Source of the DNA: Phyllobates terribilis
Taxonomy: Eukaryota
Direction of reading: 5' to 3'
Assembly: GCF_046119375.1 (NCBI RefSeq)
Contig: NW_027362763.1
Span: forward strand, 711,264,001 to 711,328,000
Length of the DNA stretch: 64,000 nucleotides
Of this stretch, positions 32,101 through 38,100 are shown in pieces; position 1 is the first letter of the stretch; each line of letters opens with the position of its first letter. A program made the position numbers.

Positions 32101-35100
32101 ATTTTGTTTTGGTCGTTTGATTTGTTTTCTCAATGAATACAATCTGAAGGATGACGAAATTTTGCTCAATGTTACTTTCCAACATAAGAAAAATCAATAG
32201 ACCATACAGTGTCACAGCAAGGATGCAAGATCCTAATATGTCTCTCTGTGGGATGACCTCTCTTAAAATTACATCACTTCATATAGTAAAAATACATTGT
32301 ATCAATATTTCTTCTAGGGTGAACCTACAGAGTAATTTAAGTCTTGAGTAGAAGTGTTTCAATGTATGAAAGACATCTGATACCCGGACAATTTAATAAT
32401 CTCTGGTATGAATTAGGATCCCAGAATACAATACTAAGGAATATAAAAATAATATTCACTATTAGTTCTTCATGAAAAATGAAACATTTTAAATACATGG
32501 GATTTTATGGCGTTTTTGTGATATTTTATATATTTTTTTATATGTGAAAGTTGCTCAATTTCCACATAGAAAAGACAATGCTTTTAGGATCGATTTTGTA
32601 ATTTTTTGTTAAATATATTGGAAGGTCAATACTTGAGACAGGTCCTACGCTTTACAAAGAGCAAAATTACTAAAATATTTTGCTATATTTCTCTCTTGTT
32701 CAGGATATTAAATTCTTTACTGTTTTGTAGGGCAATTAGTTTATGCTGCTTCTACTGCTAACTGTATTTTTAATAAAGTGTGATTCTAAAACCTGAAGAA
32801 GACCTAAAGTATGTAGGTTCAATTCATTACCAAATTCTCTCCTAAGCAAAATTTTTTTGGATCAAAAAATTTAAATGTCCAATCAGAACTAGGCTAGCAA
32901 TTCTTCATGCACAGAAACCATTGGAAATCATGTATAGTGTCATGTAAAAGTTTGGGCACCCCTGGACAAAATTACAGTTATGTTGAACAGTTAAGCAAGG
33001 TGAAGATGAAATGATTTCTAAATGGCCTAAAGTTAAAGATGACACATTTCCTTTGTATTTTAGGCAAAAATTAAAAAAAATTATTCTCATTTTTTACATT
33101 TTAACCCCTTAATAACATCTGACGTACTAATACGCGTCTGTGCCCTGGGACTTAAGAGCCAGACCCGTATTAGTACGTCATCGCGATCGCGCGCGCACAC
33201 AGGCTGTGCGGGCGCGATCGCCGCCGGGTGTCAGCTGATTGTCACAGCTGACACCCGGTACTATGTGCAGGGAGCGGTCACGCACCGCTCCCAGCACATT
33301 AACCCCCGTGATGCTGCGATCGAAGTCGATCGCGGCATTGCGGGGGCAAGGGGAGGTGATCGGCGATACTCACCTCCTCTTCCGGCTTCCAGCGCAGTCT
33401 GCAAAGGCTTCCCGGGTGTTGCCATGACGACCCGATGTCGTCATGACAACATCCGGGTCACCAGAGAGCAGGAAGATTGCTTGGACATGCGCAGTGCATC
33501 TCCAAGCAATCTTCACACTGTGCACTTCTGACAGCCTTCATGGCATAGGGATGGTGCTCCATTCCTGTGCCATGCAGGCGATCAGAAAAAAAAAAGTGAA
33601 AGTCCCAGAGTGGGGCAAAGTAATAAAGTGTATAAACTGTGTGAAAGTGGAAAAAAAAAAATAAAAAAAATGTGCAAAAATATTATAAAAAAATAAAAAA
33701 AATAATACACCAAAAATAAAAATATAATGTACCCATCAATAAATATTATTATAAAAAAAATAAAAAAAAAACAATAAAAGTACACATATTTGGTATCGCC
33801 GCGTCCGGAACAACCTGACCTATAAAACTGTCCCACTAGTTAACCCCTTCAGTGAACACGGTAAAAAAAAAAAAAAAAAAACCAAGCAAAAAACAATGCT
33901 TTATCACCATACCGCCAAACAAAAAGTGGAATAACACGCGATCAAAAAGACGCATATAAATAAAAATGATACCGCTGAAAATGTCATCTCATCCCGCAAA
34001 AAACAAGCTGCCATATAGCTCCATCAGCCGAAAAATAAAAAAGTTATAGCTCTCAGAATAAAGCGATACTAAAAAATATTTTTTTCTATAAAATAGCTTT
34101 TATTGTGTATAAGCGCCAAAACATAGAAAAATGATACAAATGTGGTACCGCTGTAAACGTACTGACCCGAAGAGTAAAGCTGCCTCATCAATTTTACCAC
34201 ACGCGGAACAGAATAAAAAAAAAAAAAAAAAAAAAAAATTCCTGAATTGTTGGTTTTTGTTTATTCTGCCTCCCAAAAATCGGAATAGAAAGCGATCAAA
34301 AAATGTCACGTGCCTGAAAATGGCACCAATAACAACGTCAAGTCATCCCGCAAAAAACGAGCCGTCACATGACTGTCTGCCAAAATCTGGAAAAATTATA
34401 GCTTTCAAAATATGGCGATGCAAAAACTAGATTTTACAAAAAATGCGTCTTTTAGTGTGTGACAGCTGTCAGTCATAAAAACCCCATATGATTCTGGCAT
34501 TGCTGTAATCACACCGACCTGAAGAATAAAGTCGTCTAATCACTTATACCGCACAAGGAACGGCGTCAAAAATAAACTCTTGAGTTAGGATTGGGCTAGG
34601 GTTAGGGCTGGGTTTGGGGCTAGGGTTGTGCTGGGGCTAGGGTTGTGCTGGGGCTAGGGTTGTGCTGGGGCTAGGGTTGTGCTAGGGTTAGGGCTGGGGT
34701 TGGGATTTTTTTCAAAAGTAAGAAAAAAAGATGACGATATGGCGACTAGTGTTGAGAGCAAGTGCTCGCTACTTGAGTTTGCATCGGGTGCTCTGGTATG
34801 CATTTAGTATCGTGGGTATTTGAGTGACATGCTCGAGTCTCTGCCCCATATGCTTCGCGGCCAAAAAACTTTACGGGGATTGCCTGCCATGCACGAGCGA
34901 TCCCCGCATGTTTTTTTTTGGGTGTCTAATAACCGTGAAACATGCAGAGCAGGGACTCGAGCATGTCACTCGAGCACACGCTGTACATGGTGCATACCTG
35001 AGTACCCGATGCAAACTCAAGTAGCGAGCACTTGCGCTCAAGAATAATGAAAACTTATTCAATATGATGACCTAATGTAAACAAATAATGTGCCGTACCT

Positions 35101-38100
35101 CTGGGTTCAAAATGTTCACTATACACCTTAATAAAATCTTTGAGGGGTATAGTTTCCAAAATGGGGACACTTGTGGAGGAGCTCCACTGTTTAGGCACAT
35201 CACGGGCTCTCCAAACGCGACATGGTGTCCGCTAACAAATTGAATGGAAAATCGGCTCAAATTGTTAGCGGACGCCATGTTGCGTTTGGAGAGCCCCTGT
35301 GTGCCCAAACATTGGAGCTCCCCCACAAGTGACCCCATTTTGGAAACTAGACCCCCCAAGGCACCTATCTAGATGCATAGTGAGCACTTAGAACCCCCAG
35401 GTGCTTCACAAATTGATTCGTAAAAATGAAAAAGTGAAAATAAAACACTTTTTCATTTTTATGAATCAATTTGTGAAGCACCTGGGGTTCCAAGTGCTCA
35501 CTATGAATCTAGATAGGTGCCTTGGGGGGTCTAGTTTCCAAAATGGGGTCACTTGTGGGGGAGCTGCAATGTTTGGGCACACAGGGACTCTCTAAATGCA
35601 ACATGGTATCCGCTAACAAATTGAATGGAAAATCGGCTCAAATTGTTAGCGGACACCACATTGCGTTTGGAGAGCCCCTCTGTGCCCAAACTTTGGAGCT
35701 CCCCCACAAGTGACCCCATTTTGGAAACTAGACCCCCCAAGGCACCTTTCTAGATGCATAGTGAGCACTTGGAACCCCCAGGTGCTTCACAAATTGATTC
35801 GTAAAAATGAAAAAGTGAAAAAAAAAACACTTTTTCATTTTTATGAATCAATTTGTGAAGCACCTGGGGTTCCAAGTGCTCACTATGAATCTAGATAGGT
35901 GCCCTGGGGGGTCTAGTTTCCAAAATGGGGCCACTTGTGGGGGAGCTCCAATGTTTGGGCACACAGGGACTCTCCAAATGCAACATGATATCCGCTAACA
36001 AATTGTCGGCTCAAATTGTTAGCGGATATCATGTTGCATTTGGAGAGTCCCTGTGTGCCCAAACATTGGAGCTCCTCCACAAGTGACCCCATTTTGGAAA
36101 CTAGACCCCCCAAGGCACCTATCTAGATGCATAGTGAGCACTTGGAACCCCTAGGTGCTTCACAAATTAATTCGTAAAAATGAAAAAGTGTTTTTTTTTT
36201 CACTTTTTCATTATTACGAATCAATTTGTGAAGCACCTGGGGGTTCCAAGTGCTCACTATGCATCTAGAAAGGTGCCTTGGGGGGTCTAGTTTCCAAAAT
36301 GGGGTCACTTGTGGGGGAGCTCCAAAGTTTGGGCACAGAGGGGCTCTCCAAACGCAATGTGGCGTCCGCTAACAATTTGAGCCGATTTTCCATTCAATTT
36401 GTTAGCGGATACCATGTTGCATTTAGAGAGTCCCTGTGTGCCCAAACATTGGAGCTCCCCCACAAGTGACCCCATTTTGGAAACTAGACCCCCCAAGGCA
36501 CCTATCTAGATGCATAGTGAGCACTTGGAACCCCTAGGTGCTTCACAAATTGATTCGTAAAAATGAAAAAGTGTTTTTTTTTTCACTTTTTCATTATTAC
36601 GAATCAATTTGTGAAGCACCTGGGGGTTCCAAGTGCTCACTATGCATCTAGAAAGGTGCCTTGGGGGGTCTAGTTTCCAAAATGGGGTCACTTGTGGGGG
36701 AGCTCCAAAGTTTGGGCACAGAGAAGCTCTCCAAACGCAATGTGGTGTCCGCTAACAATTTGAGCCGATTTTCCATTCAATTTGTTAGCGGATACCATGT
36801 TGCATTTAGAGAGTCCCTGTGTGCCCAAACATTGGAGCTCTCCCACAAATGACCCCATTTTGGAAACTAGACCCCCCAAGGCACCTATCTAGATGCATAG
36901 TGAGCAGTTGGAACCCCCAGGTGCTTCACAAATTGATTCATAAAAATGAAAAAGTGTTTTTTTTTTCACTTTTTCATTGTTACGAATCAATTTGTGAAGC
37001 ACCTGGGGGTTCCAAGTGCTCACTATGCATCTAGATAGGTGCCTTGGGGGGTCTAGTTTCCAAAATGGGGTCACTTGTGGGGGAGCTCCAATGTTTGGGC
37101 ACACAGCAGCTCTCCAAACGCAACATGGTGTCGCTAACAATTTGAGCCAATTTTGCGTTAAATTTGTTAGCGGACACCATGTTGCATTTAGAGAGCCGCT
37201 GTGTGCCCAAATATTGGAGCTCCCCCACAAGTGACCCCATTTTGGAAACTAGACCCCCCAAGGCACCTATCTAGATGCATAGTGAGCACTTGGAACCCTC
37301 AGGTGCTTCACAAATTGATTCATACAAATGAAAAAGTGGTTTTTTTTTCACTTTTTCATTGTTACGAATCAATTTGTGAAGCACCTGGGGGTTCCAAGTG
37401 CTCACTATGCATCTAGATAGGTGCCTTGGGGGGTCTAGTTTCCAAAATGGGGTCACTTGTGGGGGAGCTCCAATGTTTGGGCACACAGGGACTCTCTAAA
37501 TGCAACATGGTGTCCTCTAACAAATTTAACGGAAAATCGGCTCAAATTGTTAGCGACACCATGTTGCGTTTGGAGAGCCGCTGTGTGCCCAAACATTGGA
37601 GCTCCCCCACAAGTGACCCCATTTTGGAAACTAGACCCCCCAAGGCACCTATCTAGATGCATAGTGAGCACTTGGAACCCCCAGGTGCTTCACAAATTGA
37701 TTCGTAACAATGAAAAAGTGAAAAAAAAAACACTTTTTCATTTTTATGAATCAATTTGTGAAGCACCTGGGGGAGCTCCAAAGTTTGGGCACACATGGGC
37801 TCTCCAAACACAACATGGCGTCCGCTAATTATTCAAGCAAATTTTACAATCAAAAAGTCAAATAGCGCTCCTTCCCTTCCGAGCCCTGCCGTGCGCCCAA
37901 ACAGTATTTTTTCCCCAAATATTGGGTATCTGCGTGCCCAGGGGAAATTGCACAACAAATTTTGGGGTCCATTTTTTCTTGTTACCCCTGTGAAAATAAA
38001 AAAAATTGGGTCTAAATTAACATTTTTGTGAAAAAAGTTAAATGTTCATTTTTTTCTTCCACATTCAAAAAATTCCTGTGAAGCACCTGAAGGGTTAATA

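What the first reader, a model, noticed from the sequence alone, without database searches (positions are those of the whole stretch)
35095..37830. 2.7-kb array built from nested palindromes rather than direct repeats
Seen: about 14 arms of about 190 bp alternate in orientation around two kinds of asymmetric spacer, and the spacers themselves flip. A-run spacers near 35440 and 35820 become T-run spacers near 36190 and 36580 across a shortened centre at about 36005, implying a palindrome of about 1.5 kb. A second higher-order palindrome is centred near 37340: private variants (TTGTTACG; the 1-nt deletion in GTCGCTAAC) appear in mirror positions at 36960/37725 and 37150/37530. Inference: the array grew by repeated fold-back or template-switch synthesis, not unequal crossover. 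It could extrude cruciforms or make long dsRNA and is carried inside a piggyBac-like element.
Basis: partly seen in the sequence, partly recalled or inferred. Interest (0 to 1): 0.68.

Follow-up and report, generated by a model that had tools for sequence, protein, structure and literature searches.

The report
Hairpin-repeat array with two orientation flips
A 2.8-kb stretch inside a decayed frog transposon is a tandem array of a 382-bp hairpin-shaped unit that switches orientation twice, a small vertebrate example of an array architecture already described in beetle satellite DNA.

Summary
Window 35054-37853 holds 15 arms of about 178 nt: 13 near-identical, one old and divergent, one internally deleted. 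They alternate in orientation around two asymmetric loops, S1 (a 9-10 nt A/T run) and S2 (17 nt). Loop orientation runs + + + + + - - - - - - - + +. Flank complementarity peaks at only two of 14 loop centres, 36005 and 37339: 97.1% each over 373 nt, against 82-92% at the ten other centres measurable at that length.

The basic alternation is ordinary head-to-tail repetition of one 382-bp hairpin monomer (6.9 copies). Direct duplication is also evident: neighbouring S1 modules differ by 1 nt, and a06/a08 are sister arms. Only the two block junctions need inverted events.

My best reading is two palindrome-centred inverted duplications at pre-existing hairpin loops, plus tandem duplication and short conversion tracts. 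A block inversion followed by arm-to-arm conversion is not excluded.

The carrier, 33105-38662, has TTAA flanks and CCCCTTAA/TTAAGGGG ends but no transposase. The host is an anuran.

The closest known case is Tribolium satellite DNA, with dyad-symmetric monomers and array-level "macro-dyad" inversions. I rate it a new variant of a known kind, of moderate interest. No other family copy or sequencing reads could be examined.

The parts
33101..33104 (.). Left TTAA flank of the carrier element
   Evidence: Read directly
33105..38662 (+). Carrier: 5,558-bp non-autonomous TTAA-flanked element with ends CCCCTTAA... / ...TTAAGGGG (8-bp terminal inverted repeat)
   Evidence: No Pfam family in 102 ORFs of 55 aa or more from 27800-47000 (24 of the 126 listed, all lying within the array, were not scanned), nor in the large ORFs
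38663..38666 (.). Right TTAA flank
35054..35241 (-). a00: old, divergent edge arm, 27-33 differences from the other full-length arms (a01-a13)
   Evidence: E 1e-35
35242..36004 (+). Block 1, '+' orientation: loop S2, then arms a01-a04 with S1+, S2+, S1+ (two monomers of X-arm, S1, Y-arm, S2)
36005..36012 (.). Centre 1: S2 loop shortened from 17 to 8 nt; head-to-head junction between two Y-type arms
   Evidence: flank complementarity 97.1-97.2% at L=373 and 568, 96.2% at L=763
36013..37338 (-). Block 2, '-' orientation: arms a05-a11 with S1- and S2- loops (3.5 monomers). a05 is a hybrid arm
37339..37348 (.). Centre 2: S1 loop GTTTTTTTTT; tail-to-tail junction
   Evidence: I1: 425-nt arms, 97%; 97.1% at L=373
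37349..37853 (+). Block 3, '+' orientation: a12 (hybrid), S2+, a13, S1+, a14, running into unique flank
37768..37773 (.). Deletion junction inside a14 (profile positions 68-135 missing) at a 6-nt overlap of the two profile matches
   Evidence: the two a14 matches overlap at 37768-37773. Sequence
38076..38166 (-). Remote paralog of the arm, in the same orientation as a00 and a14, inside the same element
   Evidence: E 2.9e-6
62045..63494 (+). Start of a second, diverged family copy: TTAA at 62041-62044, then CCCCTT. It carries no arm within the window
   Evidence: 62558-63442 matches 33644-34576 at 79%; no significant arm match
32923..33069 (+). Left inverted repeat of the host element into which the carrier is inserted; partner at 40470-40611
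   Evidence: 78%, E about 1e-26. Weak Sleeping Beauty HTH match at 38858-39007, below the Pfam cut-off

Best explanation
This is an internal tandem array of a frog non-autonomous TTAA-type element. The repeated unit is a 382-bp monomer that is itself a near-perfect hairpin. It has two ~178-nt arms, X and Y, which differ at about 6 diagnostic sites. The arms face each other across a 10-nt A/T-run loop (S1) and join the next monomer through a 17-nt loop (S2).

Shown: the array consists of three blocks in opposite orientation, + (2 monomers), - (3.5 monomers) and + (about 1.25 monomers). The blocks meet exactly at an S2 loop (36005-36012, 9 nt shorter than normal) and at an S1 loop (37339-37348).

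Inferred history:
1. One arm present in the ancestral element was inverted-duplicated, and the resulting hairpin monomer multiplied head-to-tail by slippage or unequal exchange. The old edge arm a00, the flank-joined a14 and the paralog at 38076 are remnants of that ancestral arm.
2. Twice, a 3' end or nascent strand inside an arm annealed to the facing arm across the existing loop and copied back along the array. This is hairpin or fold-back priming after a break, or a replication template switch. Each event created a palindrome centred on that loop and left a hybrid arm next to it.
3. Further direct duplication (a06-a07 to a08-a09) and short conversion tracts blurred the pattern.
4. The a14 deletion at a short G-run overlap may mark the switch back to the original strand.

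No function is indicated. Expected consequences are hairpin or cruciform extrusion, replication fragility, and long hairpin RNA if the array is transcribed.
For: - Unit and period.
- Blocks flip whole: loop orientations are. X and Y arm types change strand with the loops.
- Modules match across blocks in reverse complement, not directly. S1 modules show 6-10 differences in reverse complement against 17-20 direct. S2 modules 35623 and 36379 show 2 against 29.
- Only 2 of 14 loop centres show extended symmetry.
- Twin modules sit in mirror positions. a10 and a13 differ at 1 of 178 positions and share a private 1-nt deletion. S2 modules 37144 and 37527 differ by 7, yet each differs by at least 12 from every other module. 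S1 modules 36957 and 37721 are identical over +/-43 nt.
- The right block matches its mirror register best: 11 differences in 425 columns, against 19, 21 and 54 for the other registers.
- Arm tree: (a10,a13) has 86/89 support; (a03,(a06,a08)) has 98/98, so an inverted split came before a direct one.
- Hybrid arms: a05 has the X-type stem (position 3) and is Y-type from position 15. a12 is Y-type at positions 3-36 and X2-type at positions 162-166.
- Mechanism precedents: inverted duplications centred on an interrupted palindrome via hairpin intermediates (PMC3315005, abstract); inverted junctions at short interrupted inverted repeats (PMC4689423, passages).
Against: - The innermost arm pairs are the least alike: a04/a05 differ at 9 positions and a11/a12 at 8, against 2 and 1 for the next pairs out. 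In particular, the S1-proximal half of a05 resembles a07, not a04. A simple fold-back copy therefore needs later conversion or exchange.
- For centre 36005, the mirror register is only 2 differences better than a register shifted by one unit (16 against 18 in 570 columns). The outer pair a01/a08 are not twins (10 differences; a01 is closest to a13 and a10).
- Eight of 11 inner branches of the arm tree are unresolved.
- The count of flipped loops (4 S1, 3 S2) is also what one block inversion with breakpoints inside two arms predicts.
- No reads, alleles or other family copies were available, so the ancestral state is unknown.
Confidence: 0.55

Rival explanations
1. Block inversion. A uniform head-to-tail array of about 7 hairpin monomers underwent one inversion by recombination between two oppositely oriented arms (breakpoints in a05 and a12). 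Gene conversion between the facing arms then created the mirror-shared variants. The array did not grow by the inverted events.
For: - Such an inversion flips one more S1 than S2 loop and leaves hybrid arms at both breakpoints. Observed: 4 S1 and 3 S2 flipped, with hybrids a05 and a12.
- Summing the differences between neighbouring modules by hand, the present order scores 91 (S2) and 17 (S1). The 'un-inverted' order scores 100 and 18. The difference is small.
Against: - A single reciprocal crossover predicts the same switch point in both hybrids. a05 switches between positions 3 and 15; a12 switches between positions 36 and 162.
- The 9-nt loss in the centre-1 loop is not expected from homologous exchange.
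- Four derived characters are found only in the mirror modules around 37343: the 1-nt deletion, 38G and two loop substitutions. The outer 235 nt there is 99.6% identical in mirror. Under this model, all of that needs extra conversion tracts.
Confidence: 0.2
2. A single replication error of the inverted-triplication type (ODIRA- or DUP-TRP/INV-DUP-like) created both junctions at once. Later duplication and deletion made the three blocks unequal.
For: - The middle block is inverted relative to both flanks.
- Both junctions lie on pre-existing interrupted inverted repeats.
- These are the features described for ODIRA junctions (PMC4689423, passages).
Against: - The three blocks are not copies of one segment: they hold 5, 7 and 3 arms.
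- The left and right + blocks are not specific direct twins.
- Whether an origin lies inside cannot be tested.
Confidence: 0.1
3. Assembly or library artefact: fold-back chimeric reads, or mis-joined repeats, produced the orientation switches.
For: - Palindromic arrays are hard to assemble.
- An N run lies 7.4 kb upstream at 27583-27721.
- No reads could be checked.
Against: - The mirror halves are not identical: 11 differences in 425 columns and 29 in 763 nt.
- The differences are substitutions shared among units in a structured way, not random consensus noise.
- The junction arms are specific X/Y hybrids.
Confidence: 0.08

Closest known systems
Tribolium madens satellite TmSat2 and the 'macro-dyad symmetries' of Tribolium satellite arrays (PMC13081366, passages read)
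   Same: - The monomer carries a large internal dyad symmetry: about 600 of 704 bp there, about 366 of 382 bp here.
- Arrays change monomer orientation at defined inversion sites, giving array-level palindromes.
- One of the two opposing subunits at the inversion site is atypical.
- Hairpin or cruciform potential is computed only, not shown.
   Different: - Tribolium: thousands of arrays, kilobases to 75 kb, in putative (peri)centromeric megabase regions, with inversion types conserved across arrays.
- Here: one 2.8-kb array inside a transposon of a frog. Neither copy number nor conservation could be tested.
- The sequences are unrelated.
- That paper states such array symmetries were so far documented only in Tribolium.
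Transposons and MITEs that carry internal tandem repeats: FEDoR in Rana temporaria (PMC12054243, passages); DTC84 in Donax (PMC3879986, listing only); Tetris foldback element of Drosophila virilis (PMC4079207, listing only)
   Same: A non-autonomous element with target-site duplications whose interior holds a short satellite-like array. This is a possible seed of satellite DNA.
   Different: - In the FEDoR passages I read, the internal repeats are described as tandem motifs flanked by inverted repeat pairs, with no orientation switches.
- By recall, foldback elements carry their repeats in the long terminal inverted repeats. Here the array is internal, about 1.9 kb and 0.8 kb from the ends, and the terminal repeat is 8 bp.
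Palindrome-centred inverted duplication and ODIRA (PMC3315005, abstract; PMC4689423, passages)
   Same: New inverted copies are centred on a pre-existing interrupted palindrome, and the loop is kept as the asymmetric centre.
   Different: Those are laboratory events of kilobases to chromosome arms in E. coli and yeast. Here the events are inferred from one sequence, at a scale of 0.4-0.8 kb, inside a repeat array.
Tribolium brevicornis satellite with long inversely oriented subunits (Mravinac et al. 2005; only the title was seen, in a reference list)
   Same: A complex satellite monomer built of two inverted subunits.
   Different: I did not read the paper. Array-level flips are not known to me for it.

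Membership tests
piggyBac-like (TTAA-type) non-autonomous element (the carrier) | TTAA target-site duplication on both sides | tested here: met
   TTAA at 33101-33104 and 38663-38666
piggyBac-like (TTAA-type) non-autonomous element (the carrier) | Terminal inverted repeats beginning CCC and ending GGG (feature recalled, not from a call) | tested here: met
   CCCCTTAA / TTAAGGGG, only 8 bp. The second copy starts TTAA+CCCCTT at 62041
piggyBac-like (TTAA-type) non-autonomous element (the carrier) | Relation to a piggyBac transposase or to a named autonomous partner | tested here: not met
   No piggyBac transposase domain in 14 large ORFs or in 102 ORFs from 27800-47000. No repeat library was available to name the family
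piggyBac-like (TTAA-type) non-autonomous element (the carrier) | Discrete insertion (empty site) | tested here: inconclusive
   It sits between the inverted repeats 32923-33069 and 40470-40611 of another decayed element. No uninterrupted copy of that host element is in the window
Tandem (satellite-like) array | Head-to-tail periodicity of one monomer | tested here: met
   Period 382, 6.9 copies, 92% matches
Macro-dyad-symmetric satellite arrays (Tribolium type) | Monomer with large internal dyad symmetry | tested here: met
   One monomer folds into a single hairpin, -327 kcal/mol, z = -36
Macro-dyad-symmetric satellite arrays (Tribolium type) | Sub-arrays of opposite orientation within one array | tested here: met
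Macro-dyad-symmetric satellite arrays (Tribolium type) | High abundance, (peri)centromeric location, inversion sites conserved across arrays | not testable with these tools
   Only one array is in the window. No eukaryotic genome collection was on hand
Foldback transposon | Long terminal inverted repeats made of the tandem subrepeats (recalled) | tested here: not met
   The array is internal (35054-37853 within 33105-38662), and the terminal repeat is 8 bp
ODIRA-type inverted triplication | Central copy inverted, junctions at short interrupted inverted repeats | tested here: met
   definition from PMC4689423
ODIRA-type inverted triplication | Three copies of the same segment | tested here: not met
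   Blocks hold 5, 7 and 3 arms
Rfam microRNA precursor families | Score at or above the family's gathering threshold | tested here: not met
   85 matches at E <= 1, all below gathering (best 106 bits against 200). They hit many unrelated long-hairpin models on both strands

The most novel reading that the evidence does not exclude
Hairpin-monomer arrays inside transposons may enlarge themselves by self-primed fold-back copying at their own loops. If so, this locus is an early, small-scale vertebrate stage of the nested dyad architecture (arm, monomer, array) so far reported only for Tribolium centromeric satellites. If transcribed, it would be a ready-made source of long hairpin RNA against its own transposon family.
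Probability: 0.25. Interest if true: 0.55.

Novelty: new variant of a known kind. Interest (0 to 1): 0.38.

Why it matters
If the reading is right, the locus preserves two inverted-duplication junctions at base-pair resolution in a germline vertebrate sequence. Their footprints are hybrid arms, a trimmed loop and a microhomology deletion. Such events are otherwise studied mainly in yeast, bacteria and tumours.

It also shows that the three-level dyad symmetry described for beetle satellites can arise in a few steps from a single transposon-borne hairpin. That bears on how satellites with non-B-DNA potential originate.

If it is only a private rearrangement of one decayed element, it is a curiosity with no functional weight.

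Tried and rejected
- Independent flipping of single loops by recombination between the flanking arms: rejected. Arm types flip together with the loops. The 14 loops show only 2 orientation changes among 13 neighbour pairs; by my own arithmetic, 92/8192 = 0.011 under independent flips.
- Self-inserting hairpin MITE: rejected. The S2 sequence between units is the same repeated loop, with no variable target sites or duplications.
- Known RNA family: all 85 Rfam matches are below gathering.
- Coding capacity: none of the 102 ORFs of 55 aa or more scanned from 27800-47000 (102 of 126 listed; the 24 omitted all lie within the array) has a Pfam family. The 129-aa ORF across the array (37439-37825) has no relative among proteins of 70-226 aa.
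- Comparison with the second family copy: not possible. Its homology runs 62558-63442 and stops before any arm.
- A fully resolved arm phylogeny: not obtained. Only 3 clades have support of 80 or more, and the arms are mosaics.
- A host Tc1-like identity from the ORF at 52120-52635: no similarity. Only a sub-threshold Sleeping Beauty HTH match was found.

Unchecked:
- Sequencing reads.
- Supplementary files of the Tribolium paper, which may hold the inversion-site sequences, are closed.
- Whether such a flipped array inside a TTAA-type element of a frog is in print. My searches found none, but most subscription-journal papers are not in the library.

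
Full report
**What is there**

The stretch 35054-37853 is a repeat array with a 382-bp period: 6.9 copies, 92% matches, TRF score 4144. It also holds 68 inverted-repeat pairs, the longest with 425-nt arms at 97% complementarity and a 10-nt centre.

I cut the array at two recurring loop motifs found by pattern. S1 is a 9-10 nt A or T run between the stems GAAAAAGTG and CACTTTTTC. 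S2 is a 17-nt loop between the stems CTAACAA(A/T)TT. This gives 15 arms, a00-a14, that alternate in orientation.

A profile of the arms finds 13 full-length copies (E <= 1.8e-63). It also finds a divergent edge arm a00 at 35054-35241 (E 1e-35), the last arm a14 in two pieces with an internal deletion, and one remote paralog at 38076-38166 (E 2.9e-6). Nothing else in the window is significant.

**The unit**

Thirty-three columns vary among a01-a13. About six of them split the arms into two types:
- X: a01, a03, a06, a08, a10, a13.
- Y: a02, a04, a05, a07, a09, and most of a11 and a12.

The monomer is therefore X-arm, S1, inverted Y-arm, S2. It is one long hairpin: as RNA, 36201-36573 folds at -327 kcal/mol, z = -36. 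The alternation of arms, which looks like nested palindromes, is mostly ordinary head-to-tail repetition of this hairpin monomer.

**The flips**

Loop orientation along the array is S2+ S1+ S2+ S1+ S2+(8 nt) S1- S2- S1- S2- S1- S2- S1- S2+ S1+. The X and Y arm types change strand at the same two places, so whole units are inverted, not only the loops.

Modules of loop +/-89 nt match across blocks in reverse complement and not directly. S1 modules show 6-10 differences in reverse complement against 17-20 direct. S2 modules 35623 and 36379 show 2 against 29.

Scanning all 14 loops as candidate centres, flank complementarity stands out at two only:

| Flank length | 36005 | 37339 | Other centres |
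|---|---|---|---|
| 373 nt | 97.1% | 97.1% | 82.3-92.0% (10 measurable) |
| 568 nt | 97.2% | not measurable | at most 93.3% |
| 763 nt | 96.2% | not measurable | next best 93.4% |

As single-stranded DNA, 36914-37773 folds into one hairpin at -533 kcal/mol, z = -57.

**Mirror twins and direct twins**

Around 37343 the mirror relation is specific:
- a10 and a13 differ at 1 of 178 positions and share a 1-nt deletion found nowhere else, at equal distance from the centre.
- S2 modules 37144 and 37527 differ by 7, but each differs by at least 12 from all others.
- S1 modules 36957 and 37721 are identical over +/-43 nt.
- The right block fits its mirror register with 11 differences in 425 columns. 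The other registers give 19, 21 and 54.

Around 36005, a03/a06 differ by 2 and S2 modules 35623/36379 by 2. However, the mirror register is only marginally better than the register shifted by one unit: 16 against 18 differences in 570 columns. The outer pair a01/a08 are not twins, with 10 differences.

Direct relations are equally strong. S1 modules 36191 and 36574 differ by 1. Private variants are shared by the direct neighbours a02/a04, a05/a07, a06/a08 and a08/a10.

The arm tree supports (a03,(a06,a08)) at 98/98, (a06,a08) at 86/79 and (a10,a13) at 86/89. The other 8 of 11 inner branches are unresolved.

**Junction anatomy**

At both centres the arm to the right is a hybrid. a05 keeps the X-type stem next to the S2 loop (position 3) and is Y-type from position 15, sharing the private 17T with its partner a04. 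a12 keeps the X2-type end next to the S1 loop (positions 162-166, as in a10) and is Y-type at positions 3-36, like a11.

The centre-1 loop has lost 9 of its 17 nt. a14 lacks profile positions 68-135, and its two pieces overlap by 6 nt.

In both palindromes the innermost arm pair is the least similar, with 8 mismatches within about 170 nt of the loop. The next stretch outward is nearly perfect: 2 mismatches at 162-438 nt from centre 1, and 1 mismatch at 191-425 nt from centre 2.

**Mechanism**

I favour two inverted duplications centred on pre-existing hairpin loops, superimposed on tandem duplication and short conversion tracts. In this model, a 3' end inside an arm pairs with the facing arm and copies back along the array.

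This accounts for five observations:
- the hybrid arms with the original type next to the loop;
- the retained asymmetric loops;
- the trimmed loop at centre 1;
- the mirror-private variants;
- the tree order, with an inverted split before a direct one.

Precedents are inverted duplications centred on an interrupted palindrome through hairpin intermediates in E. coli (PMC3315005, abstract) and inverted junctions at short interrupted inverted repeats in yeast (PMC4689423, passages).

The main rival is one block inversion between two facing arms, followed by arm-to-arm conversion. It predicts the observed 4 flipped S1 against 3 flipped S2 loops, and it predicts hybrid arms. It also predicts one common switch point, whereas a05 switches at positions 3-15 and a12 at positions 36-162. 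It explains neither the loop deletion nor the exclusive mirror variants without extra events.

An artefact is unlikely. The mirror halves differ by structured substitutions. Still, no reads could be checked.

**Context**

The array lies inside 33105-38662, which is flanked by TTAA on both sides and ends CCCCTTAA... / ...TTAAGGGG.

No transposase domain was found. Fourteen ORFs of 143-1237 aa, chosen from the 25 of 130 aa or more across the window, yielded only a hAT/BED protein far away at 53401-57114. None of the 102 ORFs scanned from 27800-47000 had a Pfam family. 'piggyBac-like' is thus an inference from the ends alone.

The element sits between the inverted repeats of another decayed element, 32923-33069 and 40470-40611. 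That element has a sub-threshold Sleeping Beauty HTH match.

A second, diverged family copy starts at 62045 with TTAA+CCCCTT, is 79% identical over 62558-63442, and stops being homologous before any arm. Arm numbers therefore cannot be compared within the window.

The host is an anuran. The hAT ORF's best matches, at 41-46% identity, are frog proteins. The contig is not human.

**Comparison with what is known**

The closest description I found is Tribolium madens satellite DNA. It has a 704-bp monomer with about 600 bp of internal dyad symmetry, and arrays whose sub-arrays invert at defined sites ('macro-dyad symmetries'). Its authors state these have been documented only in Tribolium (PMC13081366, passages).

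The present case shares that architecture at miniature scale. It differs in host, in being transposon-borne, in being a single array, and in having no known abundance or location.

Transposons with internal tandem repeats are known in frogs (FEDoR, PMC12054243, passages) and elsewhere (listings only).

My searches for a flipped array inside a TTAA-type frog element found nothing.

**Verdict**

The finding is a new variant of a known kind, of moderate interest.

Noticed in passing
34586-34693: A 17-bp minisatellite (TAGGGTTGTGCTGGGGC, 6.3 copies, 86% matches) made of telomere-like TTAGGG variants lies inside the carrier element, upstream of the array.
   Followed up: no
34752-35041: A separate 290-bp imperfect palindrome (72% self-complementary) sits directly left of the edge arm a00. 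It looks like a small inverted-repeat element.
   Followed up: no
33840-33860, 38092-38098, 62745-62765; also 33299 and 62237: Internal TTAACCCC motifs recur at matching positions in both family copies. The motif at 33840 (TTAACCCCTTCAGTGAACAC) has an inverted counterpart at 38076-38098, which overlaps the arm paralog. This may be an inner pair of ends or a composite family, and it suggests the arm derives from sequence around such an end.
   Followed up: partly
33863-34224 and 34217-34576: An old direct repeat of about 355 bp (67% identity) lies in the left part of the carrier. The conserved stretch shared with the second copy covers it.
   Followed up: no
53401-57114 (-): An uninterrupted 1,237-codon frame with a BED zinc finger and a hAT dimerisation domain. 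Its best relatives are frog ZBED-like proteins at 41-46% identity. It may be a young or domesticated hAT transposase.
   Followed up: partly
43008-43225; 41302-41371 / 41435-41505; 31145-31566: Further small palindromes or inverted pairs (87%, 87% and 64%) lie near the locus, so the region is rich in hairpin-type repeats.
   Followed up: no
30079-30605 and 46824-47342: A dispersed repeat of about 530 bp at 85% identity lies on either side of the locus, in direct orientation.
   Followed up: no
27583-27721: A run of 139 N. It was left as it is.
   Followed up: no
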